A stretch of DNA of 64,000 nt from assembly GCA_903936565.1 (NCBI GenBank), contig CAIZVZ010000001.1, forward strand, positions 29,401 to 93,400. The letters are read 5' to 3'. Under the pieces are notes generated by a model. It was not told the origin of the DNA. It did no database searches and saw nothing but the letters and a program-made list of their open reading frames with translations. Positions 16,009 through 50,019 of the stretch are shown here, piece by piece. The DNA is from an uncultured bacterium (lineage in GTDB: Bacteria; Patescibacteriota; Minisyncoccia; Phycocordibacterales; CAIZLB01). How positions within the stretch are numbered: the first letter of the stretch is position 1; each line of letters opens with the position of its first letter. Both the position numbers and the translations under genes were made by a program.

Positions 16009-16338
16009 TTAGTTTTTATGCACCGAACAAATGTTTTCGATCATCGCCACAACCGTGGCGAGACATAGGATGCTTTGGATCAGCAGGATCTCTGCTGGCA
16101 CCACGAGGGTGCACATCAAGATATTGCGGGTGGACCAAAGGCAACGGCCTCCGTCAACTCCATGATAGAACATGGGGAATTTGATGGAGGACCGGAGGAT
16201 AAGACCAATCCAAAGATAGAAAGCGAAGATTATCGGTAGGTAAATTACCCACACGGCGGCGGTGTGTGTCCACGTCGCGTGGACACCATCAGGATTCAGA
16301 TTCATACTTAATGGGGGTTGGTGTGTTCTGCAGTCCAC
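16009..16338 (-). CDS. small membrane protein (~3 TM), GC-rich islet
   Basis: 109 aa, hydrophobic helices, GC higher than flanks, own terminator. Confidence 0.4.
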   Translation of the reverse strand: MDCRTHQPPLSMNLNPDGVHATWTHTAAVWVIYLPIIFAFYLWIGLILRSSIKFPMFYHGVDGGRCLWSTRNILMCTLVVPAEILLIQSILCLATVVAMIENICSVHKN

Positions 16339-16568
16339 GTGACTGCATTTTTCAAGATACTTAGAGAATATATCCTAAAAAATGCAGTCACAAGACAGTC
16401 CATTTAAAGGTTCAATTACAATATCAATTATACCATAGCTTTACTCTATGTCAATGCTTATATAAAAACAAACATAATCTTATGTCCAAAAACTTAAGCG
16501 CCAAATACTAATCTCCAGATATTAGCTATCATTTTCCCCTATCTTTGCTAAAATATTTAGTATAAATT

Positions 16569-17498
16569 ATGAAAAAGCTGATTGAAATTATTTTTCTCAT
16601 TGCAATTATTATTCTAGGAATCACCCAGAAAGATTACCTGGTAAACACCTGGCAACGAGCCTTTCAACAATATTTTCCATGTAAACAGCCAATCTATTAC
16701 AGCATAGGAACATTCGATACCCGATTTGGAATATCAAAGGAAAAATTCATAAACGACCTCGCTTCAGCTGAAAAGATCTGGGAAGATCCTACTGGCATCA
16801 ATCTATTCGAATATTCTCCTAATGGAAATTTAAAAATTAATTTAATATACGACTCTCGACAGCTAACCACAGATGAACTTAGTAGCATGAACTCAACGCT
16901 TGATAACGGTAGAGAGACTTACGATAGGTTATCAACTGAATACAAACAACAGCTAGCTCTACATAATCAAAAAAATTCAGATTTTGAGTCAAGGCTTACA
17001 AATTTCAATGCGAGAAGAAAAGGCTACGAAACAGAGGTTGCGATGTACAATAGACAAGGTTCCGTAAGTACTGAAACTAAAAGTCGTCTAAACAATGAGA
17101 GGGATTATCTTAATACAGAATCTTCATCAATAAATCAATTGCAATCCGAATTGAATGATGAAGTAACAAAACTGAACGCAATGGTTGCCAACATAAATAA
17201 AAGCGCAAACAATCTAAACGCTGGCGTGAATCAATACAATACAATCAGTGCACCACTCGCAGAAGGTTTCAATGAAGGATTATACAAAAGTGATTCCAAA
17301 GGACAACAAATTGATGTGTATCAATTTAGCGATGATACAAAGTTAATCAGGGTTTTAGCACACGAATTAGGCCACGCCGTTGGACTAGAACACGTTGACG
17401 ATTCAGAAGCAATCATGCACAGACTAAACACAAGTATAAATATGAAAGCAACAGAAAGCGATTTAAATGAGATAAAACTGGTCTGTAGAACAAAATAA
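16569..17498 (+). CDS. membrane-anchored zinc metalloprotease, metzincin/matrixin-like, with central coiled-coil
   Basis: N-terminal TM; C-terminal HELGHAVGLEH (HExxHxxGxxH) followed by Met-turn-like AIMH. Confidence 0.62.
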   Translation: MKKLIEIIFLIAIIILGITQKDYLVNTWQRAFQQYFPCKQPIYYSIGTFDTRFGISKEKFINDLASAEKIWEDPTGINLFEYSPNGNLKINLIYDSRQLTTDELSSMNSTLDNGRETYDRLSTEYKQQLALHNQKNSDFESRLTNFNARRKGYETEVAMYNRQGSVSTETKSRLNNERDYLNTESSSINQLQSELNDEVTKLNAMVANINKSANNLNAGVNQYNTISAPLAEGFNEGLYKSDSKGQQIDVYQFSDDTKLIRVLAHELGHAVGLEHVDDSEAIMHRLNTSINMKATESDLNEIKLVCRTK

Positions 17499-17504
17499 TT
17501 CAAG

Positions 17505-17540
17505 ACAAAAACCCGCCAATTCACTAGCGGGTTTTTTCAA
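17505..17540. terminator. bidirectional rho-independent terminator (acccgc-caattcacta-gcgggt, A-run before, T-run after) between convergent genes
   Basis: Read directly; sits between stop of 16569..17498(+) and stop of 17544..19484(-). Confidence 0.55.
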
Positions 17541-17543
17541 TTT

Positions 17544-19484: not shown

Positions 19485-19646
19485 TAATTATAATTTTAAC
19501 ATATAAAATTTGCATTTCATAAGCGATTAACAAGTAATCGATATTAAGAAATTTCGGCAAACAAAAGCCGCCCACCAGGGGTCGATGAACGACTTCTGTT
19601 GGGCGGTGCGAACCGGTTCACGGTGCGCGGACCAATTCAATGATCC

Positions 19647-21452
19647 TTAACATTCAGAACTCTGAGTGTACTGCCGGCAAAGTTCCCGAAACTCGGGGCA
19701 ATTGGCCATCAATTCATCATACGTTCCGCTTGCAATAATTCTACCATTTGCAAACATACAAACTCGATCGAAGAGTGGAAGAAGGTGAAGTTTGTGAATC
19801 GAGGAAATCATGGTTTTACCCGGAAAGCCCTCGAACATATCTCCATATACCCTTCTCTCAGTTCTCACATCGAGACTACTAGTGGGTTCATCAAAAAGCA
19901 ACATTTCCTTATCCGAGTCCGCGCAAGCAAGAAGCCCACGAGCCAAGGCAAGACGTTGCTTCTCGCCACCACTAAGACTTACCCCTTTCTCATTCATCAT
20001 GGAGTCCAAACCCTTCGGTAATCTCGCAATTACATCGGTAAGCCCGGCCATTTCCACATAACGCATAATTTCAGCGTCAGTGTAATCCGCACCAAGCGTG
20101 ATGTTCTCGCGAATAGTCGCAGCGAAAATCTCTGCCTCTTGCGGGACAAGAGTAATCGCTCTAGCAATTCCATCAAAGCCATGAGAAATTTCCCGTCCAT
20201 CCACCGAAAGATTTAATGACGATGGGTGATAAAGATTACGCATGACCTTGAGGAATGTAGTTTTACCACTACCACTCTCTCCTACTACAGCAATTTTTTC
20301 ACCGCTCCTAATCTCCAGCGACACGTCATCCAAGTGGAGCCTCGACGACTCCCCTACGTCTCCGTAGGAGAATGACAAATTACTAATACTGAGGCTTTGC
20401 CAACCTTTTGGCAATACGTGATTCGAAAAGCTCTCATCACGAAACGCACTGGAAAGCTCTTCGGCGTTTGACACGCTTGCTCGACGCATAACCGTATCGC
20501 TGTACAAGTAATTAAACCTGCTGAAGATGTCACTCATGTTACCTAGATACTTGTACAGCAAAAATACCTCTCCAAACAATGTACCACCTTTTGCGCCGAT
20601 GTGACTTAGAAAATACGCACCAAGGACTATTGCCACCATACTCGAGCAACACATTGAACTGACAAACCATTTGATTTCATTCAGCTGACTATTTCTCCTA
20701 AACAACGCATATGGCGCTTCTGTCTTCTTAACAATCGCATTAAAGACAAGCTTCTCTACACGAAGGACAATGACTGTCACAACATTGGCGATTGCATCGA
20801 CAATACTTGCGGAAATCTTGTTATCGTTTTGATTCAGCTCACGATATTGGACTATCAGTATTCTATCAAAGCGCATTACGATCCAGAACGTGAACACCAT
20901 CATGATGACCACGACAGCCGCCGATGGTGGAAACAGAACAGCAAGCGCGATGAAGCTCCCGAAGAATCGTACAAGCGCATAAATAATTTCGAACGAGTTT
21001 TTCGTAAACTGATACAAGGCTTGAATGCCCTTCTCAATCTTGTCGATAATCCCTCCCGAATGCTGACCAGCATGCCATTCCAGTGGAAGCGTAAAAATAC
21101 CTCGAAGGAGGTGCTTCCTATATGCAAGACGGACCTTGAATCCGTTCCCGGTTTCCATCACCCTTGCAGGGCCGTGCATAAGCCAAAAGAAAGCCATTGC
21201 ACCGACGGTTCCAGTTAACAACAGAAGTAGAGGGCGAATGTTGTCATTCGTTATTCCCTCACTCTGAATGATATTCATAATCTTGGCCCAAATCTGCGGC
21301 ATGACAACAACATCAAAAGTCTCCGCGAGGATAAAGATTATCCAAACGAAAAGAACAATTTTTCTGTTGCCTACCGAATAGTGCCAAGCCTCTTTGAAGA
21401 GGTACGCGAGCGGATTAAGCCCACCTTTTTTAGACTTAGTTTTCGATTTCAT
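19647..21452 (-). CDS. ABC transporter, fused permease/ATP-binding (exporter type)
   Basis: Six N-terminal TM helices; Walker A GESGSGKTT, signature LSGGEKQRLALARGLL, Walker B LLFDEPTSSLD. Confidence 0.88.
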   Translation of the reverse strand: MKSKTKSKKGGLNPLAYLFKEAWHYSVGNRKIVLFVWIIFILAETFDVVVMPQIWAKIMNIIQSEGITNDNIRPLLLLLTGTVGAMAFFWLMHGPARVMETGNGFKVRLAYRKHLLRGIFTLPLEWHAGQHSGGIIDKIEKGIQALYQFTKNSFEIIYALVRFFGSFIALAVLFPPSAAVVVIMMVFTFWIVMRFDRILIVQYRELNQNDNKISASIVDAIANVVTVIVLRVEKLVFNAIVKKTEAPYALFRRNSQLNEIKWFVSSMCCSSMVAIVLGAYFLSHIGAKGGTLFGEVFLLYKYLGNMSDIFSRFNYLYSDTVMRRASVSNAEELSSAFRDESFSNHVLPKGWQSLSISNLSFSYGDVGESSRLHLDDVSLEIRSGEKIAVVGESGSGKTTFLKVMRNLYHPSSLNLSVDGREISHGFDGIARAITLVPQEAEIFAATIRENITLGADYTDAEIMRYVEMAGLTDVIARLPKGLDSMMNEKGVSLSGGEKQRLALARGLLACADSDKEMLLFDEPTSSLDVRTERRVYGDMFEGFPGKTMISSIHKLHLLPLFDRVCMFANGRIIASGTYDELMANCPEFRELCRQYTQSSEC

Positions 21453-21572
21453 TTTCTACCGATTCCTTTCTGTTTTGTTGTTTGTGTGTTTGTATTGAAT
21501 TAAAAAGAGCTGAAAGAACTAAAAACACCGCTTTTACGCGGTGTTTTTATTATTTAAAGATATGGTTGATCT

Positions 21573-21987: not shown

Positions 21988-22512
21988 ATGAAGAAAATCA
22001 GAACACTCAAACCTGGCACCGTTTGTCGGGATAAAGCCACCGAACTCGATGGGACGATCACCCACTGGCTCTGCAACATGGGTCATGGGATTGAATACAT
22101 CTTTCAGCCCAAAGGCCTGAATGAATTTGGTCAACCCCTGCCGTGGATAAGGTTGGAATTAGAGCGGCTCGAAACCACGGACGATATGTTCGAGGAGGTC
22201 GATGTCCCTGTAGAAATCCTCGCCAGTCAAGTTACCGACAACGCCAGCGGCTTTACTGGTATGGCCGTGGGATTCGTCCGTCACATCAACGGATGCTTCC
22301 ACGTTGCCATCCAGCCGAAGGGCGTCCTGGAGAAGACAAAGACGCCAGTGAAACGGCTCGATTTTGACCTTCGCCAATGTAGCGGAGAGATGATCACCAA
22401 GATGACCGAAGAAGAGCTGGCGGCCAGTAAGCTGTCAAGGCCTTCTCCCGCTGGATGCGTCACTGATGACGGTCTTCCGTCGTCTTGCTCAAACACAGGC
22501 TTCTCGGAGTAA
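21988..22512 (+). CDS. hypothetical protein, GC-rich islet
   Basis: 174 aa, no TM, GC clearly above flanking DNA, own strong terminator. Confidence 0.4.
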   Translation: MKKIRTLKPGTVCRDKATELDGTITHWLCNMGHGIEYIFQPKGLNEFGQPLPWIRLELERLETTDDMFEEVDVPVEILASQVTDNASGFTGMAVGFVRHINGCFHVAIQPKGVLEKTKTPVKRLDFDLRQCSGEMITKMTEEELAASKLSRPSPAGCVTDDGLPSSCSNTGFSE

Positions 22513-22533: not shown

Positions 22534-22575
22534 AAGGCCGCTCCAGCCAGGAGCGGCCTTCCTTGTTATTTATTT
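22534..22575. terminator. bidirectional rho-independent terminator (11-bp stem aaggccgctcc/ggagcggcctt)
   Basis: Perfect 11-bp stem, T-rich on both sides; between convergent 21988..22512(+) and 22590..24899(-). Confidence 0.6.
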
Positions 22576-22589: not shown

Positions 22590-24899
22590 TTATAGTGATG
22601 TCTTAACAACAGACATTGTTTTTGGTCCAAAATAACCCGAGGCAGGCGTTATCTTATTTGCCTTTTGATACTTAATTAAAGCAGCTTTTGTTGCTGGTCC
22701 AAATTTAGCACTTTCCTTACCTTTTGATCCAACGCCACTTTTTGCAACAAGAAACTTATTGTTATTTAAAAATTGTTGAAGCATCTTTACATCTTGTCCT
22801 GTCATGCCAAGTTTTAAATCACGTAAGAAAGACGCTTGTGATGATTGTAAATCAGATGATGAACTATATCTACAAAGCGCCGGTGAACTTGATGCAAAAA
22901 ATTCGTAGTTTAATGCTTTTGGATCTTTACATCCGTATATGATACTACCCGAAGAAGACTGGCCAAACGTTTGAGTTGAAACTGCAGGTTGAGCACTAAC
23001 ATTTATTGCAAAGGTTGCTGCAATACTATGTGCTGTTGTGACGTTAGTAAATCCATAAGAAGCAACCGGTCCAACAGAAACACCGTCAATCAATACATCC
23101 ACAGTGTGGTAGTTAGCTGATGGAGTAATGGTATAAACTTGAGAAGCACCATCATCTAGTGACGTTACCCCACTTGGACTAATCGTACCATTTGGTCCAG
23201 CTGATATAGTGATGGTGTGAGCAGTGGGAGAATTATAACGAGAGAGGTAAACATGAGAAACAAAGGCACTATTGTATTGTGGATATGTTACGTAAATATT
23301 ATTAGTTAAGTCCACTGCTATTTGAGGTGAGGAAACTGGATGAGCTACACCGAGGTCAATTGGAGTACCACTAGCAAAAGTATTGGTCCACGCAGACGCA
23401 TCACCATTCCAAATCCTAACATCTGTTCCATCATAACGTGAAAGATATATTTGGGGGTATGGATTAACGTTGGTATATTGCTGGTAAGTTACATAAACCT
23501 TACCATTTGTGTCTATAGCCAATTGAGGTACGGTTGCATCTTTTACTATACCCGTATCTATTGGATCACCATTCGCAAAAGTTGTGGTCCACGTAGATGC
23601 ACCGTTATCCCAAATCCTAACATCAGTACCATTATAACGTGAAAGGTAAATATGATTTTTTGTACCATTTGACTGATAATAAGTTACATAAACTCTACCG
23701 GTTGAATCTACTGCAACTTGGGGTGTGATCGCGCTTTGAGCTATACCTGTATCTATTGGAGTACCATTTGCAAAAGCTGTGGTCCATGATGAAGTGTTAC
23801 CGTCCCAGATTCTAACGTCGGTGCCATCATATCTAGAAAGATACACATGTAGATTAGAGCCATTACTCTGCTGATAAGTTATATAAACCCTACCCGCTCC
23901 GTCAACAGCCAATTGATTAGAATAAGCATCGTTTGCAGTACCGGTGTCTATAGGATCACCGTTAGCAAAAGTCGTGGTCCAAGATGAAGAATTACTATCC
24001 CAAATTCTAACATCAGTACCATCATAACGTGAAAGGTAGATGTGACTTTTAGCGCCATCTGATTGAGAATAAACTAAATAAACTTTGTTGGTTGAATCTA
24101 CAATTAGCTGTGGTTCAGAAGAACTATTAGCTGTACCCGTATCTACCGGAGTACCACTAGCAAAAGTATTGGTCCACGCAGACGCATCACCATTCCAAAT
24201 CCTAACATCTGTTCCATCGTAACGGGAAAGGTAGATATGAGTACTTACACCGTCAAATTGAAAATATGTTAAATAAACTTTATTATTTGAATCAATAGCC
24301 AACTGCGCAGAGCTAGCAGAGCTCGATATACCTGTATCTATTGGAGTACCATTTGCAAAAGTTGTGGTCCATAATGAAGTGTTACCATCCCAAATTCTAA
24401 CGTCTGTGCCATTATATCGGGAAAGATAAATATGGGTCACGAAACTGACTGTCTGTTGATAAATGACATAGACATTGTTATTGGCATCAATTGCCAATTG
24501 AGGTGCATTAGCATTATTTGCTGTGCCAAGGTCAATTGGAGTACCGCTAGCGAAGTTATTTGTCCATGCAGATGCGTCACCATTCCATATTTTAACATCC
24601 GTGCCGTCATGACGAGAAAGGTAGATGTGACTTGCGGAACCATTGGACTGTTGGAAAACAGTATATACCCTACCGTTTGAATCTGTAGCAACCTGAGGTG
24701 TTAATGCATTTTGAGCTATACCAGTATCTACTGGAGTACCGCTAGCCAAGGTATTTGTCCATGCGGATGCGTCACTATTCCAAATCTGCACAGATGAACT
24801 CGCCGCTGCCTTTGATGAGATTCCAAAAAATATAAAAACTGACACTAGTAAAATAATAGTAAATTTCTTATTCAACACCAAGGATGATATTTTAGACAT
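22590..24899 (-). CDS. cell-wall-associated repeat protein: signal peptide, ~10 tandem ~48-aa repeats, InlB-B-repeat-like domain, C-terminal peptidoglycan-binding (PG_binding_1-like) domain
   Basis: Repeat consensus IWNGDASAWTNTFASGTPIDTG....PQLAIDS.NKVYVTYQQS.G...HIYLSRYDGTDVR; TISAGPNGTISP...YTITPSANY; C-terminal GMTGQDVKMLQQFLN...ATKAALIKYQKANKI. Confidence 0.7.
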   Translation of the reverse strand: MSKISSLVLNKKFTIILLVSVFIFFGISSKAAASSSVQIWNSDASAWTNTLASGTPVDTGIAQNALTPQVATDSNGRVYTVFQQSNGSASHIYLSRHDGTDVKIWNGDASAWTNNFASGTPIDLGTANNANAPQLAIDANNNVYVIYQQTVSFVTHIYLSRYNGTDVRIWDGNTSLWTTTFANGTPIDTGISSSASSAQLAIDSNNKVYLTYFQFDGVSTHIYLSRYDGTDVRIWNGDASAWTNTFASGTPVDTGTANSSSEPQLIVDSTNKVYLVYSQSDGAKSHIYLSRYDGTDVRIWDSNSSSWTTTFANGDPIDTGTANDAYSNQLAVDGAGRVYITYQQSNGSNLHVYLSRYDGTDVRIWDGNTSSWTTAFANGTPIDTGIAQSAITPQVAVDSTGRVYVTYYQSNGTKNHIYLSRYNGTDVRIWDNGASTWTTTFANGDPIDTGIVKDATVPQLAIDTNGKVYVTYQQYTNVNPYPQIYLSRYDGTDVRIWNGDASAWTNTFASGTPIDLGVAHPVSSPQIAVDLTNNIYVTYPQYNSAFVSHVYLSRYNSPTAHTITISAGPNGTISPSGVTSLDDGASQVYTITPSANYHTVDVLIDGVSVGPVASYGFTNVTTAHSIAATFAINVSAQPAVSTQTFGQSSSGSIIYGCKDPKALNYEFFASSSPALCRYSSSSDLQSSQASFLRDLKLGMTGQDVKMLQQFLNNNKFLVAKSGVGSKGKESAKFGPATKAALIKYQKANKITPASGYFGPKTMSVVKTSL
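23324..24791. repeat. ~144-bp coding tandem repeats (~10 copies) within 22590..24899
   Basis: Recurrent near-identical DNA blocks (e.g. gcaaaagt(t/c)gtggtcca...tcccaaattctaacatc) matching the 48-aa protein repeat. Confidence 0.6.
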
Positions 24900-26841: not shown

Positions 26842-26917
26842 TGGTGGACCCGACAGGACTCGAACCTGCCACCCCCTCAGTGCAAGTGAGGTGCTCTACC
26901 AGATGAGCTACGGGCCC
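26842..26917 (-). tRNA. tRNA-Ala (anticodon UGC), CCA encoded
   Basis: Minus-strand sequence GGGCCCGUAGCUCAUCUGGUAGAGCACCUCACUUGCACUGAGGGGGUGGCAGGUUCGAGUCCUGUCGGGUCCACCA folds as a 76-nt cloverleaf; G3:U70 Ala identity pair; anticodon loop CUUGCAC; T-loop UUCGAGU. Confidence 0.9.
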
Positions 26918-28134: not shown

Positions 28135-31100
28135 TTATTTTTCAATCACCTTCGGTACCTTGGAGCATTTCCCCTCCGCTAAAGCACTTAGGTTAGCTGT
28201 TATCGGATTACCATCTTCTCCGACTCCACTTGTATACTTAAGATCACAGTACAATGTATGCTTACCAACTCCTAATCTAATTAGCGCGGATGGTGTTGGA
28301 GTAACATTTACGGTATTAATACCCTTATCTACGTAACAGGAGGCATCGTGGACATTGTTATATACCACTCCGTTACCATCTATCATTGTTGTACTTGCAT
28401 ATCCGTAGAAATTACACTTCTCATCAGTACTTGATGCCCAACTTGGATTTGAGTAGAATCTAAGGCCTTTAATTGGTTTATTAGATGTCCCTACATATGG
28501 ATCATTCGTACAAGGACTTTTATTGACAAAGTTCGGTGACAACAAAATATTACTAGGAGCAGAAGGTATCACGTCTGTACCACTCATCATATATGCATAA
28601 GCAACATAATTTGATAACGACTGTGGATTGAAACCATTGCCGAGGGTAAATTGAGTGATACTAGCTGGAGTCTCTCCCAATAAGGTACTTGATTGATACA
28701 CATTATATCCATCTGCATTAGTTACACTATTCCATGTTATTGTTGCTCGATTAGACCCATTAACATCTGTACAATATTCACCACTTATCAATGGTGCCGC
28801 TACAGTCGTAGTTACAGGGTTAGTTGCATTAATATTGAAGATAGTCCAACTAGATATTTTTCCACTATTTTGATCCTGAGCCGCAACCTTCATAGGTGTT
28901 GTTGTTGCAGTAGCCCAAATATGATCTGCTGGAACTCTTACTCCATAAGCATAATAATCACTAACATAATCCACGGCGCTATCACTATTCCAATCGAATA
29001 GATATCTGACCCTATCATCAACAGTTTGTGCAAAAACTTTTTTGATTGCAAACATAATCGAAGCAAACAATGACTCCTTCTTGTTTTTCCCCATCGATCC
29101 TCCAGATCCCCCAGATGCATTATCTGACCATGCTTCATAGGTATTATTTTCTCCAACAGTAACATCATGTGGCCCTGCTACATTTGGCGCAGAAGGTGTA
29201 AGTTCTCCTATTGGTTGAATAACGTTGAAACTAATAGGATAAACAGACTCTCTAAATCTTAACTGATAAGGCGAATAGTAATCAACCAACGTATTTGGAC
29301 CAAAGTTTAGATCTTCATGATAGGAATTTAGAAAATTCTGATAAGTTGAATAACATCTATTTCTAGTGTAATTAAAATAAGGATATGGTACAGGACAACC
29401 GATTACAGTACCACTTGAATTTACCATCTTGTTAACATTTATACATCCAACCTCACCAGGCACACAAAATCCAACTCCATTATCATTTGTAAGATTATTT
29501 GATACATTTGCATTATTAACTGTCACTTGACGCTTATCATGTAGCGGTACAGCATTTGTCTTACAGATTCCATCTGACCCCTTCCATCCATAATAATAGT
29601 ATCCAAATGTTGGTGCATAATACATGTAAGCGGTTTTTGAACCAGGTATGGTTGGGGTACATGCAAATCCATCTGCAATGTCACATTCCCAATTTTCAGA
29701 GTCATTGTCCGGAACTAAGGGTGCACCCCACTCTGGATATGTGCTTGGGTCGATAATATAAGGATTAAGGCCACCAACACTAAATGAGAGGCTTTTGTTT
29801 GGAGGATCAACTGAAAGTGGAACAAAAATATCTATATTTTGAGTAATGCCAGTTACTGGATTTAGGTATGGCTTTGTGCCCACCTTGTTTCCTGGAGTAC
29901 AAATTTGGTTTGATGCTGGATATTCAGCATCAGCGATCCAACTACCATAAGGGGTGTCTTGTGTATACCCAATTCCTGACCAAACAATATTATTATTTGT
30001 TGTAGAATTTGTCTTGTCAAAATTAAAGTGTACTTTTGTGTCAATTATTAAGTTGCTTCCATTAGGAATTGCGATACCCAAATCATCTCTAACTGAAGAG
30101 TCATAACTTATAGACGATGTAGTAGGCTGAAGCGCAGGGGCCCAGTCACCGTCGGTCAAACTACCTGTGTCACTTGCCCAATAATATAAATATGGAGCAT
30201 CATTAACAATGGTTGAATACCAATAATTCCAAACATAGTCCCACACCCACCAGAATCCGGGAGGAATTGGCAAACCCGGCGGTTTAGGAACCTTATAATA
30301 CTCGTAAGACTTTACCAGCGTACTTGTATTGTGATTCCAACAAACACTTTTAACAGTAATATCTTTCCAACCTTTAGTGTTTGCAGGTGAATTGAATCTT
30401 ATATAAGTATTTGTGTGCTCAGTAATACGCGCCAACGCTCCTCCAATATGAAGACTTTTTACATTTTTAAAATTGTCACCATGAATCATTGAATCTACAC
30501 CTCCAGTAGTCGGACTATGAGGTGGCTGAGGAGGTCGAGAAAGTGTTTTTACTTTTGGATCGAGACATATGAATTTAAAAGTCCCCTTCTCTACGCATCG
30601 AGCAAGAATTGGTATAGGGTGATCTCTGAAAATTATTGGTTGAGGAGCCTCCCCTGATATTCTATCAAAGGTAAACATAATCAAGCTATCTGATTGGCTT
30701 ATAATAGTTCCAGGGTAAACGCCAACTCTAATCGCCCTTACTTGTGTCAATTTCGTACCTCCAGCAAAAGCGGTAACTTTTCTCGGATCACAGTTCATTT
30801 GATCTGGGCAATTCTCAGCTTCCATCGGTGTCATACTTTGAACATCAAAACACGAGTCTGAAGAACCACTATTTGAACCATTCGGGTCCGGGTATGTACC
30901 ACTGTTAGAATCTCCAGTACCAGAATCGGAGCCAGCATTCGGGTCATATCCCGTACCAGAATCGGAGCCGGTACCAGAATCGGAGCCAGCATTCGGGTCA
31001 TATCCCGTACCAGAATCGTAGCCGGTACCAGAATCGTACGACTCCTGAGCATGCGCGTTCAAATGGATCGAAAACGCACTGATTAGCATTCCAAAAATAA

Positions 31101-40321: not shown

Positions 40322-40951
40322 TTACGGACCTAAGGGAAGTGCCCAAGGACTGTCGAACGGCAGTTGATAGTTCAAACAGCAGTAGATTAAGACGAACGCA
40401 AAAAGAAGAAAGAGTATACTATCGACAGGGTGTCGATATATCTCTGCGACTGTCTCAAGAAGTTTCTTCAGAATCGGTTGCACAAACCGCCTTCTCTCAA
40501 CTGGGGAATAAAACATTCTCCAGGTCGACGAAGCAATAGGTTCTCCCTTTTCTGTTTTTACTTCAATCAACCAATCACAGTACGCCCTTCCTTTTTTTAC
40601 AGATCGACTCATCAAGGTGTATGAGTACTGATAGAACATACCGATATGAAGCGGGCGCTTCAACTCGACAGAACCATAGCCCAAAGCGATTATCTCAATG
40701 TCCTCGTCGAACTCAAGGATTTTATGAATCCCCGACTTAGTCAGCGCGAGGACAAAATCCCCACAACACGTCAGACTCTTAAGATTCGATCTGAAGCGCC
40801 AGGCAGTAAACGGATTGATGTGAACCTTATTCCAGTCCCCTGTTGCGATTGCAAAAAGGATGAAGCGGAAGAAGGACACAATCAACCGATCAGACTGCCA
40901 GTAAAATCCTATGGGGAGATCGCCAATTTCAGATATTCTTTTAAGGTGCAT
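40322..40951 (-). CDS. MaoC-like (R)-hydratase/hotdog-fold protein with hydrophobic C-terminal extension
   Basis: FAIATGDWNKVHINPFTA matches the MaoC FA..SGD.NPIH.D...A motif; hairpin caccatc-cgaa-gatggtg plus T-run downstream on minus. Confidence 0.45.
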   Translation of the reverse strand: MHLKRISEIGDLPIGFYWQSDRLIVSFFRFILFAIATGDWNKVHINPFTAWRFRSNLKSLTCCGDFVLALTKSGIHKILEFDEDIEIIALGYGSVELKRPLHIGMFYQYSYTLMSRSVKKGRAYCDWLIEVKTEKGEPIASSTWRMFYSPVERRRFVQPILKKLLETVAEIYRHPVDSILFLLFAFVLIYCCLNYQLPFDSPWALPLGP

Positions 40952-43636: not shown

Positions 43637-43674
43637 AGCGCGCACAGCCAGAGTGGCCATGCGCGTTTTTTTGT
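43637..43674 (+). terminator. rho-independent terminator of YqeY gene (gcgcgca...tgcgcg stem, T7 tract)
   Basis: GC hairpin followed by ttttttt. Confidence 0.6.
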
Positions 43675-43767
43675 TGAGTTTGTGGTCACTCCATGAATGG
43701 ATAGCAACCGATGTTTTTTGCATGCGCAACCAGGCTGGGTGCCGAATTGTGATGCAAACCGATTGAC

Positions 43768-44163
43768 CTACTGCTGAGTGGGTGGCTGAATCAATTCCTT
43801 GATATCGTTTGGGACAATCGCCCAAGGAACCGTTCCTGCATACTCCTTCAGCTTTCTGTAGGCCGCGTCTTCGCGGTTGCGATCGATAAGCACGGTCGCT
43901 GCTGTTTGCTGTCCTAAGACCAGCTTTTGAACAGCTTGACCGCGAATTTCTACGTATTCTTCTTTCAACGCCTCCATCTCCCTCACCCGGTAATCAACCG
44001 GGAAGATGAACTTGTCAACAAGCATCACCAAGACGACAATCGAGGCAAGAGCAAGGATCATGGACGAGAAAGACCAGCCACGAAGTGACTGCCGACAAGG
44101 AACGGGTGTGTATTTCATACCAAACAAAAGACTAGTACACAAACCACAAGCTGTCAACTGCAA
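43768..44163 (-). CDS. small membrane-anchored hypothetical, GC-rich islet (probable start at internal MILALASIVVLV)
   Basis: One TM helix; GC above background. Confidence 0.35.
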   Translation of the reverse strand: MQLTACGLCTSLLFGMKYTPVPCRQSLRGWSFSSMILALASIVVLVMLVDKFIFPVDYRVREMEALKEEYVEIRGQAVQKLVLGQQTAATVLIDRNREDAAYRKLKEYAGTVPWAIVPNDIKELIQPPTQQ

Positions 44164-44177
44164 ATTAAATCCGCTCC

Positions 44178-44696
44178 CTACTTCCCCCTCCTTATCTCCT
44201 CCAAAATCAATTCTAACTGTTTATCAATTTTCAAAAATTTCTCACCAATCTCTCTGTCTCTTTTGGTCTCCGAATCTTCGATGTCATCAATATCCTCAGC
44301 TAAGTCCTCATGTGACTCCTGAATATCATCAACATCTTCTTGAATATCCTCCACGTCTTCTTGAATTTCATCAATATCTTCCTGAATTTCATCCAAATCC
44401 TCCTCAACTTCTTCCAAACTTTCAGTGTTTCTATTCACTGTCATTTGAATAAAGATTGCAAGATAAATTGCCTCCAAAGAAACGATTGTTGTTAAAATTA
44501 GCAGCACTTCGTCTGTAGGAGCCCCAAGTGCAATTGAAACGAATGACATCGCAAATAGAAAAGTATGTGCATACAGTGAAGACTCTGACCCAATCCACAC
44601 TGATGCTTTTTCTGCAAAAGTTTTTTCAACTATTTTCTTCTCTTTCTTCTCTTTTTTAAAATTCTTTTCTTTCAGTTTGCGATTTGCGATGTTCAT
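44178..44696 (-). CDS. DUF1003-like two-TM protein with acidic tandem-repeat tail
   Basis: LLILTTIVSLEAIYLAIFIQMTVNRN resembles the DUF1003 core; C-terminus EDLDEIQEDIDEIQEDVEDIQEDVDDIQE (18-bp DNA period, ~44290-44420). Confidence 0.5.
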   Translation of the reverse strand: MNIANRKLKEKNFKKEKKEKKIVEKTFAEKASVWIGSESSLYAHTFLFAMSFVSIALGAPTDEVLLILTTIVSLEAIYLAIFIQMTVNRNTESLEEVEEDLDEIQEDIDEIQEDVEDIQEDVDDIQESHEDLAEDIDDIEDSETKRDREIGEKFLKIDKQLELILEEIRRGK

Positions 44697-44905
44697 AAAA
44701 TATTTTTTCTTAGACTGATACTATATTATTTAATATAACATACTTTTATTGTTTTTATCTAGAAAATTACCATGGTGGAAATGTGTATGTATTAAAACTA
44801 ACAACGAAATAACCCGCGCAGAGTTGTGGCAATGCGCGGGTCTATTTGGCCAGATTGGTTTGGTTGATCGAGAGCGTTGCTGGCCAGCAACACTTTCGAT
44901 TTGAA

Positions 44906-45313
44906 TTATTTCCCGCCCTCTTCCTCGATCATGAGGTTGTAGGTAGGGTAATTGCTGATGTACGATGACACCCTCCATGATAGGCGCTCCCCTTCGGGGA
45001 GAGCCTTGACAGCGTCTTGCAACGCCTTTAAGGCAATGTCGAATTCCTTTTTAGCCAAGACGGGGGAAACCCCGCCGTCGCCACCAGGATTTTCCGACTG
45101 GACCCAGTCCCTTTCGGCGTCGAGAGCATTTAGATAAGCCTCTTCAACCTCTGGGATGTCCCCGCTCGAGTTTATGAAAGGCAGAATTACTCCGAAGAGC
45201 ACCCCCGCCGACGCAATCACAGCGAGAAGGTACAAGGTGCAGGTAATCCAAGGATTCGACGACTTACTGATTCGGTTCTTGCTCATCTGCCTTAAATAGT
45301 AACACATTACCAT
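44906..45313 (-). CDS. small membrane-anchored hypothetical, GC-rich islet (probable start at MSKNRISK)
   Basis: One TM helix, GC above background; hairpin cccgcgca...tgcgcggg plus T-run downstream on minus (~44808-44850). Confidence 0.35.
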   Translation of the reverse strand: MVMCYYLRQMSKNRISKSSNPWITCTLYLLAVIASAGVLFGVILPFINSSGDIPEVEEAYLNALDAERDWVQSENPGGDGGVSPVLAKKEFDIALKALQDAVKALPEGERLSWRVSSYISNYPTYNLMIEEEGGK

Positions 45314-45416
45314 GTTTTTGTAAAGGTCTGAGTGTAGACAAATTTACAACCTTATTTATCAACATATTTTAGCATCACACTATTCCCCACCCCTCATTAC
45401 ATGCTATCATATAGAC

Positions 45417-45659
45417 ATGTTAATACATGCCTTATCGATAATTGTTTTGGTATTAATAAGTGCGATATTTGGTCCGTTTATGGCACTTGCATATCCAAGT
45501 TATAGTATTTTATTTAAAATTATTTTAATACTTGGACTAGCTGCTGCCGTTGGAATAATTATTTTCGGAGTAAAGAAAAAGAAATATTTAATAATTCTTA
45601 TTGGAGTATTGATTTGGACAATGATTGGATTATTCTATGGACTAAGCACAGCATCATAA
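45417..45659 (+). CDS. small 2-TM membrane protein, hypothetical
   Basis: 80 aa, two hydrophobic helices; hairpin plus T-tract terminator at ~45695-45735. Confidence 0.35.
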   Translation: MLIHALSIIVLVLISAIFGPFMALAYPSYSILFKIILILGLAAAVGIIIFGVKKKKYLIILIGVLIWTMIGLFYGLSTAS

Positions 45660-45774
45660 TTTTTAATTTATTTTGATAATTAATAAGCAATAAAAAACTT
45701 CCACCATAGCGATGGAAGTTTTTTATTTTCAACCTACTGTTTTAAAGGCCAAACCTCTCCAGTGCATTGTAAAA

Positions 45775-46515
45775 TTAACTCTTCTTCGCAAATCCTGAAA
45801 ATGCTTGCAATATTTCAAGTGGAACAGTAAATACGACTGTATTTGATTGATCTGAAGAAATATCATTTATTGCTTGAAGAGTTCTAAGATGCAATGCACC
45901 AGGAGTTGATGCCAACATCTTTGCAGCTTCCGCCATGTTCGATGATGCAGCAAGTTCTCCCTCGGATGTGATTATCACAGCCCTCTTCTCTCTTTCAGCT
46001 TCAGCTTGCTTTGCAATAGTTCTCTCCATATTCTCTGGAAGCTTTACGTCCTTAAGTTCAACTGAAGAAACTTCAAGTCCCCAGGACTTACTCACGGTCT
46101 CAACAAGAACCTCAATTCTATCAGCCACCTTATCTCTACTTGCCAATAGCTCATCCAATGTAACTTCTCCAACCACATTTCTCATTGTAGTTTGAGCATA
46201 TTGCATAATTGCATATCTAAAGTTCTCAATTTCAAGAATAGCCTTCTCAGCATCTGCTACTTTGTAATAGATGACAGCGTTAACGTTCACTGGGACGTTA
46301 TCCTTTGTAATAGCATTTTGATCTGGAACATCCACAGCCTTAGTTCTAAGATCAACCTTTTGATATGATTGAATTATAGGAAATACAATTCTCCATCCAG
46401 GATTCATTGTCTTATGAAATTTACCAAACATAAATTTAAGACCCTTCTCATATTGATTAACTTGACGGACTGATATAAGTATCAGAACAACGACAACGAT
46501 TATTGATGCTACCAT
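45775..46515 (-). CDS. SPFH/Band-7 (stomatin/HflC-like) membrane protein
   Basis: N-terminal TM then SPFH pattern VRQVNQYEKGLKFMFGKF...GWRIVFPIIQSYQKVDLR...VDVPDQNAITKDNVPVNVNAVIYYKV. Confidence 0.8.
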   Translation of the reverse strand: MVASIIVVVVLILISVRQVNQYEKGLKFMFGKFHKTMNPGWRIVFPIIQSYQKVDLRTKAVDVPDQNAITKDNVPVNVNAVIYYKVADAEKAILEIENFRYAIMQYAQTTMRNVVGEVTLDELLASRDKVADRIEVLVETVSKSWGLEVSSVELKDVKLPENMERTIAKQAEAEREKRAVIITSEGELAASSNMAEAAKMLASTPGALHLRTLQAINDISSDQSNTVVFTVPLEILQAFSGFAKKS

Positions 46516-46663
46516 ATTATTTTTATTATTTTATTAAACCAACAATAACTATATTTTAGCGTATTTATGGAAATATACCAGCGTATTTGGCCATATCCAG
46601 CAGAGAGGCAATCTCAAGACCTTATTCAATGACGGAGATACAACAAGCACCAAAGTCTGCAAA

Positions 46664-49270: not shown

Positions 49271-49314
49271 TATTCAATTATATGCGATTAACACTGATTG
49301 GTCGAGGAATATTT

Positions 49315-49363
49315 AAAATACAACAACAGAAAAGGTGGGCGCGGGAGTTTCCCGCGCCCACCT
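49315..49363 (-). terminator. rho-independent terminator (perfect 14-bp stem aggtgggcgcggga/tcccgcgcccacct, 3-nt loop, T-tract on minus) downstream of 49429..50019
   Basis: Read directly. Confidence 0.6.
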
Positions 49364-49428
49364 GTGAATCATTAATCACCAGTAGACACCAGTGCGAACG
49401 ATCCACAATTCTAATCACAATACCACCA

Positions 49429-50019
49429 CTACCGAATGCACATGCACCAGACCCAAGGTAGAATCACAAACACCCCCGTCACAGTACTTACCCCAGTGAA
49501 TAGTCGGTCCTGAATAGTCCAGGTCTTGATCGACAAACTTCCGGCTGAAATAAATGCTATAGAGTTGGCAATCAAAAACCCAGTGTTTGCAAGAATGGGA
49601 CTCTCCAGTGGAAATCGATAGGTCAAAATCCAATACGGTATCCCGGCAATAGTGGAAGCGATGACAGAAATCACCAACGCCCATTTTTCACCCTTCTTGC
49701 CCTTTGTGAACAAAAGCACAACGCACATGACAACCAGAATGGCGATAAAACCATCGAGAGCAGTCAAGGTTGTATACCTATGCTTACAGGCCAAAACAAA
49801 AGTCATGACCGTGGCTCCAATTGCATAGACCTTTGGCACAGATGGTGTTGCACCACCTTGTTTCTTCGTGGTGATAAACGATATCCAGGTTAGCGCAGTC
49901 CACAAGGCAAATGAAGCAAAAGACAAGCCCTTGCCGTTTTGCATGAATGCGCAAACGATTAGATACGAGTAGCAGATGGCGATTAGCCATAAAACATACT
50001 TATCAATTTTCTTTTTCAA
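49429..50019 (-). CDS. integral membrane protein (~5 TM), hypothetical, moderately GC-rich
   Basis: 196 aa, hydrophobic helices. Confidence 0.45.
   Translation of the reverse strand: MKKKIDKYVLWLIAICYSYLIVCAFMQNGKGLSFASFALWTALTWISFITTKKQGGATPSVPKVYAIGATVMTFVLACKHRYTTLTALDGFIAILVVMCVVLLFTKGKKGEKWALVISVIASTIAGIPYWILTYRFPLESPILANTGFLIANSIAFISAGSLSIKTWTIQDRLFTGVSTVTGVFVILPWVWCMCIR

What the first reader, a model, noticed from the sequence alone, without database searches (positions are those of the whole stretch)
16009..50019. Recurrent small GC-rich islets, each a single membrane/secreted gene with its own strong GC hairpin terminator
Besides the large island, short GC-elevated genes occur at 3767-4260, 13063-14226, 16009-16338, 21988-22512, 43768-44163, 44906-45313 and 49429-50019. 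Most encode single-TM or polytopic membrane proteins of unknown function. Several are followed by unusually long perfect GC stems (for example 15789-15810, 22534-22560 and the 14-bp stem at 49333-49363) that stand out in AT-rich DNA. This looks like piecemeal acquisition of envelope proteins, or a second compositional class of genes, rather than one mobile element, since no integrase or transposase is present.
Basis: seen in the sequence. Interest (0 to 1): 0.5.

Follow-up and report, generated by a model that had tools for sequence, protein, structure and literature searches.

The report
GC-rich single-gene cassettes in CPR genome
An AT-rich genome of an ultra-small (Patescibacteria/CPR) bacterium carries about a dozen short GC-rich genes, each with its own promoter and terminator and most encoding fast-evolving envelope proteins. 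They sit in fixed slots between conserved genes and have stayed GC-rich over long evolutionary time, so they are a real second class of genes, not assembly errors or fresh imports.

Summary
The 45 backbone genes have GC3 of 0.31 ± 0.04 (maximum 0.43).

- **Not artefacts or RNA genes.** The contig is identical in independent assemblies, and there are no Rfam or tRNA hits. Protein homologues exist for 6 of the 7 islets searched plus i21988 and i8710 (none for i43768; i7089, i8312 and i40322 were not searched). GC3 is the highest codon position in 10 of 12.
- **Self-contained units.** Nine of ten tested 3' ends have a stable hairpin (-19 to -31 kcal/mol). The three best sigma-70 promoter matches in 20 kb all sit upstream of islets.
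- **Products.** Nine of 12 have a signal peptide or transmembrane segment; three are soluble.
- **No mobility genes.** No integrase, transposase, phage gene or flanking repeat was found.
- **Slots are conserved.** In sister genomes the promoter, leader or terminator is alignable. The coding sequence is 36-52% identical (backbone 73-98%) or swapped for an unrelated gene.
- **GC-richness is long-lived.** Homologues are GC-rich in other CPR genomes for five of six families. One conserved 174-aa family has raised GC3 in 29 of 32 loci. Passive decay after one old transfer cannot explain this.

The likeliest reading is single-gene "replacement islets" kept GC-rich by recurrent recombination, biased gene conversion or selection. 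"Piecemeal acquisition" is only partly right.

The parts
3807..4133 (-). Islet i3807: 108-aa soluble protein of unknown function. GC 0.48, GC3 0.47.
   Evidence: Composition. No TM segment. One homologue at 43% identity (P0150); it is syntenic in L027 next to AsnB and L27 and is GC-rich there (0.48 against 0.36).
4502..4530 (-). Promoter-like site (TTGACC-17-TATCAT) about 370 nt upstream of i3807. It lies inside a conserved non-coding block.
8710..9969 (-). Islet i8710: secreted BNR/Sortilin-type beta-propeller, 419 aa. GC 0.52, GC3 0.50.
   Evidence: Pfam PF15902. More than 1000 homologues in many phyla. Syntenic orthologues are only 43-48% identical in L006 and L009, while the promoter region is alignable.
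8655..8680 (-). Hairpin terminator of i8710 (11 bp, -22.9 kcal/mol).
8312..8572 (-). Islet i8312: 86-aa single-TM protein. GC3 0.53.
7089..8249 (-). Islet i7089: 386-aa secreted protein with a signal peptide. GC 0.53, GC3 0.63.
   Evidence: No tblastn match in the L009 locus, which spans this slot. No Pfam or PHROG family.
7039..7064 (-). Hairpin terminator of i7089 (11 bp, -21.6 kcal/mol).
14298..14326 (-). Promoter of i13732 (TTGACA-17-TATCAT with an extended TG; 11 of 12 matches).
13732..14226 (-). Islet i13732: 164-aa lipoprotein with an LPSC lipobox. GC 0.55, GC3 0.69.
   Evidence: Homologues at 58%, 36% and 26-31% identity. The L025 homologue has GC 0.54 against 0.32 in its flank.
13669..13699 (-). 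Hairpin terminator of i13732 (13 bp, -25.9 kcal/mol).
13571..13599 (-). Promoter of i13063 (TTGACA-17-TATGAT; 11 of 12 matches). Its -35 hexamer is conserved in L009.
13063..13497 (-). Islet i13063: 144-aa soluble protein with a weak helix-hairpin-helix (RNA polymerase alpha-CTD-like) match. GC 0.51, GC3 0.57.
   Evidence: Pfam match is weak (E = 0.005). The L009 orthologue is 39% identical in protein and keeps the promoter, 5'UTR and terminator.
12999..13042 (-). Long hairpin terminator of i13063 (-31.3 kcal/mol), conserved in L009.
16427..16454 (-). Perfect sigma-70 consensus promoter of i16009 (TTGACA-16-TATAAT with an extended TG; 12 of 12 matches).
   Evidence: The -10 element and the leader are conserved in L006.
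16335..16396 (-). 5' leader of i16009 with the inverted repeat GTGACTGCATTTTT...AAAAATGCAGTCAC. It is conserved in L006 ahead of a different gene.
16009..16305 (-). Islet i16009: 98-aa protein with two TM segments. GC 0.50, GC3 0.63.
   Evidence: The 98-aa form is called in public data and has four homologues at 26-36% identity. The L026 homologue has GC3 0.70 in a flank of GC 0.40. TM prediction.
15789..15810 (.). G/C hairpin about 200 nt downstream of i16009 (8 bp, -18.9 kcal/mol). It scores as a terminator on both strands.
21988..22512 (+). Islet i21988: 174-aa cytoplasmic protein built from tandem SH3/Tudor/KOW-like barrels. It belongs to a conserved CPR family. GC 0.53, GC3 0.62.
22534..22560 (.). 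Bidirectional hairpin terminator between i21988 and the convergent 769-aa gene (11 bp, -22.6 kcal/mol).
40322..40951 (-). Islet i40322: 209-aa protein with a C-terminal TM segment. GC 0.45, GC3 0.50.
   Evidence: Its 90% cluster has a single member, seen on 29 contigs.
43768..44118 (-). Islet i43768: ORFan of about 116 aa with one TM segment; the start codon is uncertain. GC 0.51, GC3 0.58.
   Evidence: No homologue among 1.84 billion representatives. Absent in L028. TM prediction.
43639..43665 (-). Hairpin terminator of i43768 (12 bp, -20.9 kcal/mol).
44906..45313 (-). Islet i44906: 135-aa protein with one TM segment. GC 0.52, GC3 0.65.
   Evidence: The orthologue in L028 is 52% identical next to YqeY (97%) and RmuC (99%), with an alignable 3' region.
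44865..44900 (-). Hairpin at the 3' end of i44906 (-19.5 kcal/mol).
49429..50019 (-). Islet i49429: 196-aa polytopic membrane protein with at least four TM segments. GC 0.45, GC3 0.52.
   Evidence: About 50 homologous clusters at 25-47% identity. The L029 homologue is not GC-rich. TM prediction.
49333..49363 (-). Hairpin terminator of i49429 (14 bp, -31.1 kcal/mol).

Best explanation
**What they are.** The islets are autonomous single-gene expression cassettes: a sigma-70-type promoter, one short gene and a Rho-independent hairpin terminator. They occupy fixed slots between conserved backbone genes in an AT-rich Patescibacteria (CPR, Paceibacteria-like) chromosome. Most payloads are small secreted, lipid-anchored or membrane proteins. 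They evolve 5-25 times faster than the backbone at the protein level, or are exchanged outright for unrelated genes, while the slot and often its promoter, leader and terminator persist.

**What is shown.**
- They are compositional outliers.
- They are real and mostly shown to be protein-coding.
- Each is its own transcription unit.
- The slots are conserved, with hyper-divergent or swapped payloads.
- The GC-richness recurs in homologues in other CPR genomes.
- It cannot be a passively decaying relic of one old transfer.

**What is inferred.**
- The slots are recombination-prone. Alleles and payloads are replaced by homologous recombination through the conserved flanks, so no integrase is needed. 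CPR bacteria are thought to take up DNA naturally.
- That recurrent recombination keeps the cassettes GC-rich. It could act through GC-biased gene conversion, through exchange with a GC-richer accessory gene pool shared among CPR lineages, or both.
- Diversifying selection on the cell surface, from phage or host contact, drives the turnover.
- They work like miniature "replacement flexible genomic islands".
For: **Composition.**
- Islet GC3 is 0.47-0.69 against 0.31 ± 0.04 for the backbone, z = 3.7-8.7.
- Both G- and C-ending codons and GC-rich amino acids are raised.
- The dinucleotide signature differs: delta* is 0.093 against 0.040 ± 0.015 for random backbone subsets, and CpG is 0.94 against 0.66.

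**Not an artefact.**
- The exact 174-aa protein is listed in 44 blocks of the collection, always with the same neighbours.
- Four contigs from different samples are identical over 10-16 kb apart from one mismatch.

**Coding.**
- Protein homologues were found for 8 of the 9 islets searched; i43768 has none.
- GC3 is the highest codon position in 10 of 12 islets; i3807 and i8710 are the exceptions.
- There are no Rfam or tRNA hits.

**Own transcription signals.**
- The three best promoter matches in 3.2-23 kb sit upstream of i16009, i13732 and i13063.
- Five of 12 islets score at least 10 of 12 promoter matches, against 6 of 45 backbone genes.
- Nine of ten 3' ends have hairpins of -19 to -31 kcal/mol.

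**Slots.**
- In sister genomes (PIF1 91-96% identical in protein), backbone proteins are 73-98% identical. Islet orthologues are 36-48% identical or absent.
- The i13063 orthologue keeps its promoter, 5'UTR and terminator.
- The i16009 promoter and leader are followed in L006 by an unrelated 49-aa ORF.
- The i44906 3' region is conserved in L028.
- Sister loci carry their own GC-rich (0.46-0.55) signal-peptide genes at the same spots.

**Rates.** Islet dN is 0.49-0.70 against 0.01-0.18 for the backbone. Four-fold sites differ at 0.61-0.83 against 0.22-0.63.

**Persistence.**
- Homologues are GC-rich relative to their flanks in L025, L026, L027, L028, L001 and L003.
- The 174-aa family exceeds the median GC3 of its neighbours in 29 of 32 loci and ranks first in 18 of 32.
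- A decay model needs an ancestral GC3 above 0.83, and above 1 for most.

**No mobility machinery.** No integrase, transposase or reverse transcriptase among scanned ORFs, no flanking repeats, no PHROG family with a known function and no relatives on viral contigs.

**Literature.**
- Replacement islands keep their position across species, encode exposed structures and are exchanged by homologous recombination (PMC4119200).
- Recombining bacterial genes have higher GC3, mainly through non-optimal GC-ending codons (PMC4450053).
- Most detected gene transfer in Patescibacteria occurs between Patescibacteria (PMC12455944).
Against: - Recombination at the slots was not measured. The available population contigs are clonal, with one mismatch in more than 57 kb compared.
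- Published gBGC effects in bacteria are a few GC3 points, not 20-35 (PMC4450053).
- No GC-rich donor genome was found for any islet.
- i21988 diverges in step with the backbone (dS 1.9 against 2.0 for Ddl; dN/dS 0.09) and is strongly conserved. Its GC-richness therefore cannot come from allele turnover and fits selection better.
- Three products are soluble.
- The i49429 homologue in L029 is not GC-rich.
- Only one 64-kb window and 10-20 kb of each relative were examined, so the genome-wide picture is unknown.
Confidence: 0.5

Rival explanations
1. Gene-specific selection holds the cassettes GC-rich in place. Selection on nucleotide content or codon choice, for high expression or for mRNA stability or structure, would act on these strongly transcribed genes. 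Recombination and transfer would play no special role.
For: - i21988 looks vertically inherited. It recurs next to ddl, its dS equals the backbone's and its dN/dS is 0.09. Yet its GC3 is raised in 29 of 32 genomes.
- The rise is strongest for C-ending codons of two-fold pyrimidine boxes: TTC, TAC, ATC, AAC and GAC.
- Islets carry the strongest promoter matches, and the family's upstream regions score above those of its neighbours (9.3 against 8.5).
- Selection for GC in bacterial genes is documented (PMC2936529).
Against: - G-ending and rare codons also rise sharply (CGG 0.19 against 0.01, TCG 0.26 against 0.06, CTG 0.22 against 0.06), and amino-acid composition shifts too.
- Ribosomal proteins L27 and L21 in the same window are not raised (GC3 0.31 and 0.34).
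- It is hard to see why near-ORFans evolving at dN 0.5-0.7 would be under strong synonymous selection.
- This does not explain the payload swaps.
Confidence: 0.22
2. Each islet would be a separate, fairly recent horizontal acquisition from GC-richer donors that has not yet ameliorated.
For: - Composition, codon usage and dinucleotide signature look foreign.
- i43768 is an ORFan.
- i7089 is absent in L009.
- The i16009 payload is replaced in L006.
- i8710 has homologues in Verrucomicrobia, Flavobacteriales and Undibacterium.
- Gene transfer is common in Patescibacteria (PMC12455944).
Against: - Orthologous slots with conserved regulatory flanks exist in genomes separated by a backbone dS above 1.
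- Homologues in distant CPR genomes are syntenic and also GC-rich.
- Every homologue context examined was a CPR-like AT-rich genome. No donor was found.
- The decay arithmetic excludes old one-off transfers.
- There are no integrases, repeats or tRNA borders.
Confidence: 0.2
3. The islets are phage morons or remnants of a degraded prophage or other mobile element.
For: - The architecture is moron-like: promoter, one gene and terminator, with deviant composition.
- There are weak PHROG hits for i21988 (E = 1.6e-5) and i8710.
Against: - The flanking genes are housekeeping genes: cdaA, PIF1, ddl, uvrC, dnaB, recR, rmuC, L21 and L27.
- No phage structural, integrase or transposase genes were found.
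- Five scans of viral contigs found no relatives.
- The islets are scattered over 46 kb.
Confidence: 0.05
4. The islets are artefacts: assembly chimeras, contaminating reads, or non-coding structured RNAs misread as ORFs.
For: - GC-rich DNA gives long spurious ORFs on both strands.
- The 16009 ORF was not called by one gene caller.
Against: - The sequence is the same, apart from one mismatch, in independent samples and assemblers.
- Protein-level homologues were found for eight of the nine islets searched (i43768 has none), and GC3 is the highest codon position in 10 of 12.
- The 174-aa family gives an AlphaFold model with pLDDT 91.6.
- There are no Rfam hits.
Confidence: 0.02

Closest known systems
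Replacement flexible genomic islands of aquatic bacteria (Alteromonas, SAR11, Prochlorococcus; Rodriguez-Valera and Lopez-Perez concept; PMC4119200)
   Same: - They sit at the same chromosomal position and in the same context across related species.
- Their content is non-homologous or extremely divergent between conserved flanks.
- Their products are exposed on the cell surface.
- No integrase is present, and exchange is attributed to homologous recombination.
   Different: - The units here are single genes of 0.3-1.3 kb, not clusters of 7 kb or more, typically larger than 15 kb (PMC4119200).
- Each has its own promoter and terminator.
- They are GC-richer than the genome; the Alteromonas islands in PMC4119200 are listed at only 36-43% GC.
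- The organism is an ultra-small CPR bacterium.
- Three payloads are cytoplasmic.
Phage morons (independent transcription units inserted between phage genes; recalled from Juhala and Hendrix, 2000, not checked here)
   Same: The unit is one gene flanked by its own promoter and a Rho-independent terminator, and its nucleotide composition differs from the surrounding DNA.
   Different: - The surroundings here are chromosomal housekeeping genes, not a prophage.
- No relatives were found on viral contigs.
- The slots are conserved between species.
Classical horizontally acquired genomic islands, and the transfer events reported in Patescibacteria (PMC12455944)
   Same: - Composition is deviant and the genes are accessory or hypothetical.
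- Membrane-related functions are common.
- Exchange appears to be mostly within Patescibacteria.
   Different: - There is no integrase, no tRNA border and no direct repeats.
- The units are single genes.
- The GC-richness persists across lineages whose backbone dS exceeds 1.
GC-biased gene conversion at recombining bacterial genes (PMC4450053)
   Same: - GC3 is raised mainly through non-optimal G- and C-ending codons.
- The association is with loci that recombine or vary.
   Different: - The effect here (+0.16 to +0.37 in GC3) is roughly ten times the published bacterial effects.
- Recombination was not measured here.

Membership tests
Classical genomic island or integrative element | Integrase, recombinase or transposase gene in or beside the island | tested here: not met
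   Pfam scans of about 60 ORFs across the window found none.
Classical genomic island or integrative element | Flanking direct repeats or insertion at a tRNA gene | tested here: not met
   No repeat family links the islet borders. The only tRNA (Ala, 26842-26917) is not adjacent to any islet.
Classical genomic island or integrative element | Composition deviates from the host genome | tested here: met
   GC3 z = 3.7-8.7; delta* 0.093 against 0.040 ± 0.015.
Replacement flexible genomic island | Same genomic context in related strains or species | tested here: met
   The slots next to PIF1, cdaA, DUF6159, YqeY and AsnB are conserved in L006, L007, L009, L027 and L028.
Replacement flexible genomic island | Content between conserved flanks is unrelated or extremely divergent | tested here: met
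   Islet proteins are 36-52% identical or absent, against 73-98% for the backbone. The payload at the 16009 slot is swapped.
Replacement flexible genomic island | Encodes structures exposed on the cell surface | tested here: inconclusive
   Nine of 12 products have a signal peptide, lipobox or TM segment by hydropathy; three are soluble. No function is known.
Replacement flexible genomic island | Multi-gene cluster (typically larger than 15 kb; smallest listed 7 kb) | tested here: not met
   The units are one gene of 0.3-1.3 kb; the largest group (7089-9969) is 2.9 kb.
Replacement flexible genomic island | Exchanged by homologous recombination in the flanks | not testable with these tools
   This needs population data. 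The available same-species contigs are clonal.
Phage moron | Own promoter and terminator around a single gene | tested here: met
Phage moron | Located within a phage or prophage genome | tested here: not met
   The neighbours are housekeeping genes. No PHROG family with a known function. No relatives on viral contigs.
Integron gene cassette | Tandem array beside an IntI integrase, with attC sites | tested here: not met
   The islets are scattered singletons in both orientations with no integrase. The 3' hairpins are followed by T-runs, as in terminators.
Structured non-coding RNA gene | Match to a known RNA family, or absence of coding signal | tested here: not met
   No Rfam hit at gathering threshold, and only chance-level hits at E of 1 or below. 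Protein homologues exist for eight of nine islets searched, and GC3 is the highest codon position in 10 of 12.
Diversity-generating retroelement target | Reverse transcriptase plus a template/variable repeat pair | tested here: not met
   No such repeat pair in 3-51 kb and no reverse transcriptase among scanned ORFs. Divergence spans whole coding sequences.

The most novel reading that the evidence does not exclude
CPR bacteria may possess integrase-free "expression slots". A slot would be a conserved promoter, leader and terminator frame between housekeeping genes whose payload gene is repeatedly exchanged or overwritten by recombination. A strong GC-favouring process tied to that recombination (gBGC far stronger than reported for bacteria) or gene-specific selection would then create a stable, family-linked GC-rich gene class. 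Even a vertically inherited, conserved family (the 174-aa tandem-barrel protein) carries this mark across dozens of lineages.
Probability: 0.2. Interest if true: 0.65.

Novelty: new variant of a known kind. Interest (0 to 1): 0.42.

Why it matters
CPR/Patescibacteria have tiny genomes and live attached to other cells, and their surface proteins are largely unknown. This result picks out a compact, recognisable class of fast-turnover envelope genes, recognisable by GC3, their own promoter and their own terminator. These are good candidates for host- or phage-interface factors.

The result also shows that compositional "foreignness" in these genomes can be long-lived, so GC-based transfer calls would misdate such genes. 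If the GC-richness is driven by recombination, these slots would be an unusually strong natural test case for GC-biased gene conversion in bacteria.

The conserved 174-aa family is a widespread, confidently folded CPR protein with no assigned function.

Tried and rejected
- **Non-coding RNA.** The islets could have been rRNA, tRNA or other RNA genes, which are the usual GC peaks in AT-rich genomes. Rfam and ARAGORN found only one tRNA-Ala, elsewhere in the window.
- **Repeated element (MITE or IS).** No DNA repeats link the islets, and i43768 and i44906 are unrelated. The 12-mer CTTGTGACTGCA shared by two islet promoter regions is within chance.
- **Chimeric assembly.** The same-species contigs match the window over 10-16 kb, with one mismatch in total, in four samples.
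- **Prophage or morons.** PHROGs and five viral-contig scans were negative.
- **Ribosomal-protein-type translational selection.** L27 and L21 are not GC3-rich, and G-ending rare codons rise as well.
- **Recent recombination in L028.** The near-identical RmuC and YqeY proteins suggested a recent recombinant tract. DNA identity is only 85%, so this was dropped.
- **Concatenated query.** A concatenation of four islet proteins in the search for homologous proteins returned nothing and wasted one search. A similar seven-protein concatenation worked in the search of protein representatives.
- **Donor for i8710.** Its homologues come from many phyla at a similar 35-45% identity, which is uninformative about a donor.

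Full report
**Context.** The window is 38% GC. It carries housekeeping genes typical of a small Patescibacteria (CPR) genome: asnB, L27, cdaA, a PIF1 helicase, ddl, uvrC, dnaB, recR, L21, rmuC, yqeY and a P-type ATPase. Homologues of its genes come from MAGs labelled Paceibacterota or Patescibacteria and from uncultured lake bacteria.

**Check of the observation.**
- The 45 backbone genes have GC3 of 0.310 ± 0.043, with a maximum of 0.425.
- The islet coding sequences have GC3 of 0.47-0.685 (z = 3.7-8.7). None overlaps the backbone range.
- The class is larger than listed. It also includes 7089-8249, 8312-8572 and 8710-9969 (the "large island") and 40322-40951. The ABC transporter at 19647-21452 is mildly raised.
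- Nine of the ten islet 3' ends folded have a hairpin of -19 to -31 kcal/mol; i3807 lacks one.
- Backbone genes also have terminators, mostly A-tract/stem/T-tract hairpins of -12 to -26 kcal/mol. Only the G/C-only stems are special to the islets.

**Are they genes?**
- Rfam at gathering threshold and ARAGORN find only one tRNA-Ala, away from any islet. Permissive Rfam searches of two islets give only chance-level hits.
- Ten of the 12 islets have GC3 as the highest codon position in the proposed frame; in i3807 and i8710 another position is higher.
- Eight of the ten islet sequences looked up are present verbatim in public gene catalogues, on 6-32 contigs each. The 145-aa i3807 and 109-aa i16009 forms are not, but shorter forms of both are.
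- A full HMMER scan of 1.84 billion representative proteins with seven concatenated islet proteins gave these results:

| Islet | Homologues found |
|---|---|
| i13063 | 2 distant |
| i13732 | 3 |
| i16009 | 4 proteins of about 97 aa, 26-36% identical |
| i3807 | 1 at 43% |
| i44906 | 2 |
| i49429 | about 50 clusters |
| i43768 | none |

- i21988 has more than 140 homologous clusters at 50-74% identity. Its AlphaFold model has pLDDT 91.6 and shows two SH3/Tudor/KOW-like barrels.
- i8710 is a BNR/Sortilin-type propeller with more than 1000 homologues.

These results show protein-coding for the eight islets with homologues; for i43768, i7089, i8312 and i40322 it rests on ORF structure and codon-position GC.

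**Are they assembly artefacts?** No. The exact 174-aa protein is listed in 44 blocks of the collection, always with the same neighbours. Four contigs from different samples and assemblers match the window over 10-16 kb with a single mismatch in total.

**Anatomy.**
- The three best sigma-70 matches in 3.2-23 kb lie directly upstream of i16009, i13732 and i13063 in the correct orientation. They are 16454-16427 (12 of 12 with extended TG), 14326-14298 and 13599-13571 (11 of 12 each).
- Five of 12 islets have a promoter match of at least 10 of 12 within 150 nt upstream (420 nt for i3807), against 6 of 45 backbone genes.
- Hydropathy analysis gives signal peptides or lipoboxes in i7089, i8710 and i13732, and one to four or more TM segments in i8312, i16009, i40322, i43768, i44906 and i49429. 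i3807, i13063 and i21988 are soluble.
- No Pfam family with a known function fits the small islets.
- No integrase, transposase or reverse transcriptase was found among about 60 ORFs scanned.
- No repeats connect the islets or flank them.

**Nature of the compositional shift.**
- Both C-ending and G-ending codons rise:

| Codon | Islets | Backbone |
|---|---|---|
| ATC | 0.56 | 0.15 |
| CTG | 0.22 | 0.06 |
| TCG | 0.26 | 0.06 |
| CGG | 0.19 | 0.01 |

- Amino-acid use shifts toward Ala, Gly, Pro and Trp and away from Lys, Asn, Ile and Phe.
- Ribosomal proteins L27 and L21 in the same window have ordinary GC3 (0.31 and 0.34). This is not the codon bias of highly expressed genes.
- The GC-normalised dinucleotide signature also differs. 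Delta* is 0.093 against 0.040 ± 0.015 for random backbone subsets. CpG is depleted in the backbone (0.66) but not in the islets (0.94).

**Comparative evidence.** A scan of one genome per species with the PIF1 helicase recovered four sister species (L006-L009; best-segment identity 89-95%; 91-96% in the pairwise comparisons).
- Backbone proteins are 73-98% identical in the L006/L009 pairwise alignments. DNA similarity stops at the islet borders.
- Islet proteins are either absent or 36-48% identical in the pairwise alignments (26-47% by tblastn).
- Sister loci carry their own GC-rich (0.46-0.55), signal-peptide-bearing genes at the same positions. These also lack Pfam families.

| Measure | Islet orthologues | Backbone |
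|---|---|---|
| dN | 0.49-0.70 | 0.01-0.18 |
| Four-fold sites differing | 0.61-0.83 | 0.22-0.63 (0.45-0.56 for most) |

Three slots were examined at base level:
- **i13063 against L009.** The -35 hexamer, 5'UTR and terminator are alignable, and the terminator is nearly identical. The coding sequence is 39% identical in protein.
- **i16009 against L006.** The -10 element and a leader with the inverted repeat GTGACTGCATTTTT...AAAAATGCAGTCAC are conserved. They are followed by an unrelated 49-aa acidic ORF of ordinary composition. This is a payload swap behind conserved expression signals.
- **i44906 against L028.** The 3' region, including the hairpin, is alignable. The neighbours YqeY and RmuC are 97-99% identical, while the islet protein is 52% identical.

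i3807 has a 43%-identical homologue in L027 at the same place, between asnB and L27.

**Persistence of GC-richness.** Homologues in other CPR genomes are GC-rich relative to their own flanks:

| Locus | Gene GC | Flank GC |
|---|---|---|
| L025 | 0.54 | 0.32 |
| L026 | 0.54 (GC3 0.70) | 0.40 |
| L027 | 0.48 | 0.36 |
| L028 | 0.45 | 0.37 |
| L001 | 0.47 | 0.39 (whole-locus GC) |
| L003 | 0.48 | 0.34 (whole-locus GC) |
| L029 (the i49429 homologue, the one exception) | 0.36 | 0.34 |

For the 174-aa family, 72 metagenomic loci were fetched.
- The gene is GC-richer than its flanks in 53 of 55 loci.
- Its GC3 exceeds the median of neighbouring genes in 29 of 32 loci.
- It ranks first among its neighbours in 18 of 32 loci; about 3-4 would be expected by chance.
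- The mean GC3 excess is +0.15.
- The family recurs next to ddl in 8 loci, with Ddl identity ranging from 28 to 83%.
- Between the window and L001 it diverges in step with Ddl: dS is 1.9 against 2.0, and dN/dS is 0.09.

**Why a single old transfer fails.** Backbone dS between the window and L006 or L009 is 1.0-1.7 for most genes. A two-state relaxation toward the backbone GC3 of 0.31 would leave only 22-50% of any initial excess. The present values would then need an ancestral GC3 of 0.83 to above 1 for i13063, i13732 and i21988. This is my own simple model; it assumes that the backbone GC3 reflects the mutational equilibrium. The GC-richness must therefore be actively maintained, or renewed after the species split.

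**Mechanism.**
- Shown: the islets are self-transcribed single-gene cassettes in conserved slots, with hyper-divergent or swapped payloads and a long-lived GC-rich composition.
- Inferred: the slots are recombination-prone. Alleles and payloads enter by homologous recombination through the conserved flanks, so no integrase is needed.
- Inferred: recombination-linked processes keep them GC-rich. These could be GC-biased gene conversion (PMC4450053), exchange with a GC-richer accessory pool shared among CPR lineages (most Patescibacteria transfers are within the phylum; PMC12455944), or both.
- Inferred: turnover is driven by diversifying selection on surface proteins, as proposed for replacement flexible genomic islands (PMC4119200).
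- Main rival: gene-specific selection for GC. This fits the conserved, apparently vertical 174-aa family better than allele turnover does. The class may have mixed causes.
- Plain recent transfer explains some members (i43768, i7089 and the i16009 payload) but not the class.
- Phage morons, integron cassettes, DGR targets, RNA genes and chimeras were tested and rejected (see the membership table).

**Limits.**
- Recombination rates could not be measured, because the population contigs are clonal.
- Only 10-20 kb of each relative was available.
- No donor genome was identified.
- TM and signal-peptide calls rest on simple hydropathy.
- Promoter and terminator calls are consensus matches without transcript data.

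**Verdict.** The phenomenon is a small-scale, GC-rich, CPR version of replacement genomic islands and morons: a new variant of a known kind and of moderate interest. One open question is sharp: what keeps these genes GC-rich?

Noticed in passing
window 4351-4821 (core at about 4625-4652, minus strand): There is a conserved non-coding block upstream of islet i3807.
- It is 83% identical to L009, although about half of backbone four-fold sites differ between these genomes.
- A 28-nt core, ACGTCGCACAATATATCTTTTGCGACAT, is invariant in three genomes and contains the inverted repeat GTCGCA..TGCGAC.
- It has no ORF of 40 aa or more and no Rfam hit.
- The minus-strand fold z-score is only -2.4.

It may be a long leader, a regulatory region or an undescribed RNA.
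   Followed up: partly
window 16335-16396 (minus strand); L006 7850-7906: The i16009 leader carries a 14-nt inverted repeat, GTGACTGCATTTTT...AAAAATGCAGTCAC. It is conserved in sister genome L006 even though the downstream gene is different. It may be an operator or a 5'UTR regulatory hairpin.
   Followed up: partly
window 21988-22512; alignment A1; loci L030-L101: The 174-aa protein defines a widespread CPR family of more than 140 clusters at 90% identity, with no Pfam family.
- It folds confidently (pLDDT 91.6) as two SH3/Tudor/KOW-like barrels.
- Cys103, His105 and Cys131 are invariant; His26 and His99 are nearly so. This may be a metal-binding site.
- It recurs next to ddl.

Its function is unknown.
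   Followed up: partly
window-wide (backbone against islets): CpG is strongly depleted in backbone genes (relative abundance 0.66) but not in the islets (0.94). TpA shows the reverse pattern (0.81 against 0.62).
   Followed up: no
window 22590-24899 (minus strand), repeats at 23276-24686: A 769-aa secreted protein contains seven or more tandem 195-nt (65-aa) repeats at 66-79% identity, plus a C-terminal peptidoglycan-binding domain. It resembles a beta-propeller wall protein.
   Followed up: no
window 30914-31039 and 44317-44400: There are short in-frame tandem repeats in two genes. One is a set of 18-nt units in the 1462-aa TIG-domain protein. The other is a set of 21-nt units encoding acidic heptads in the DUF948-like gene at 44178-44696.
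   Followed up: no
window 5399-6953 against L009 17492-19157: The segment from L27 to the 212-aa gene has dS of about 0.3 against L009, while other backbone genes show dS of 1.0-1.7. This suggests a mosaic history, with recombination between these lineages in this segment.
   Followed up: no
L006 9240-9926; L007 8442-9128; L009 6446-7129: At the PIF1-upstream slot, three sister genomes carry 227-228-aa, GC-rich, signal-peptide proteins of similar size. The L009 protein has a sub-threshold match to the outer-membrane beta-barrel domain PF13505 (E = 0.003). That would be unexpected in bacteria thought to lack an outer membrane.
   Followed up: partly
L028 5087-5533: A relative with near-identical RmuC and YqeY proteins carries an IS200-like Y1 transposase about 1.6 kb from the slot. 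The gene order around the i44906 homologue also differs from the window.
   Followed up: no
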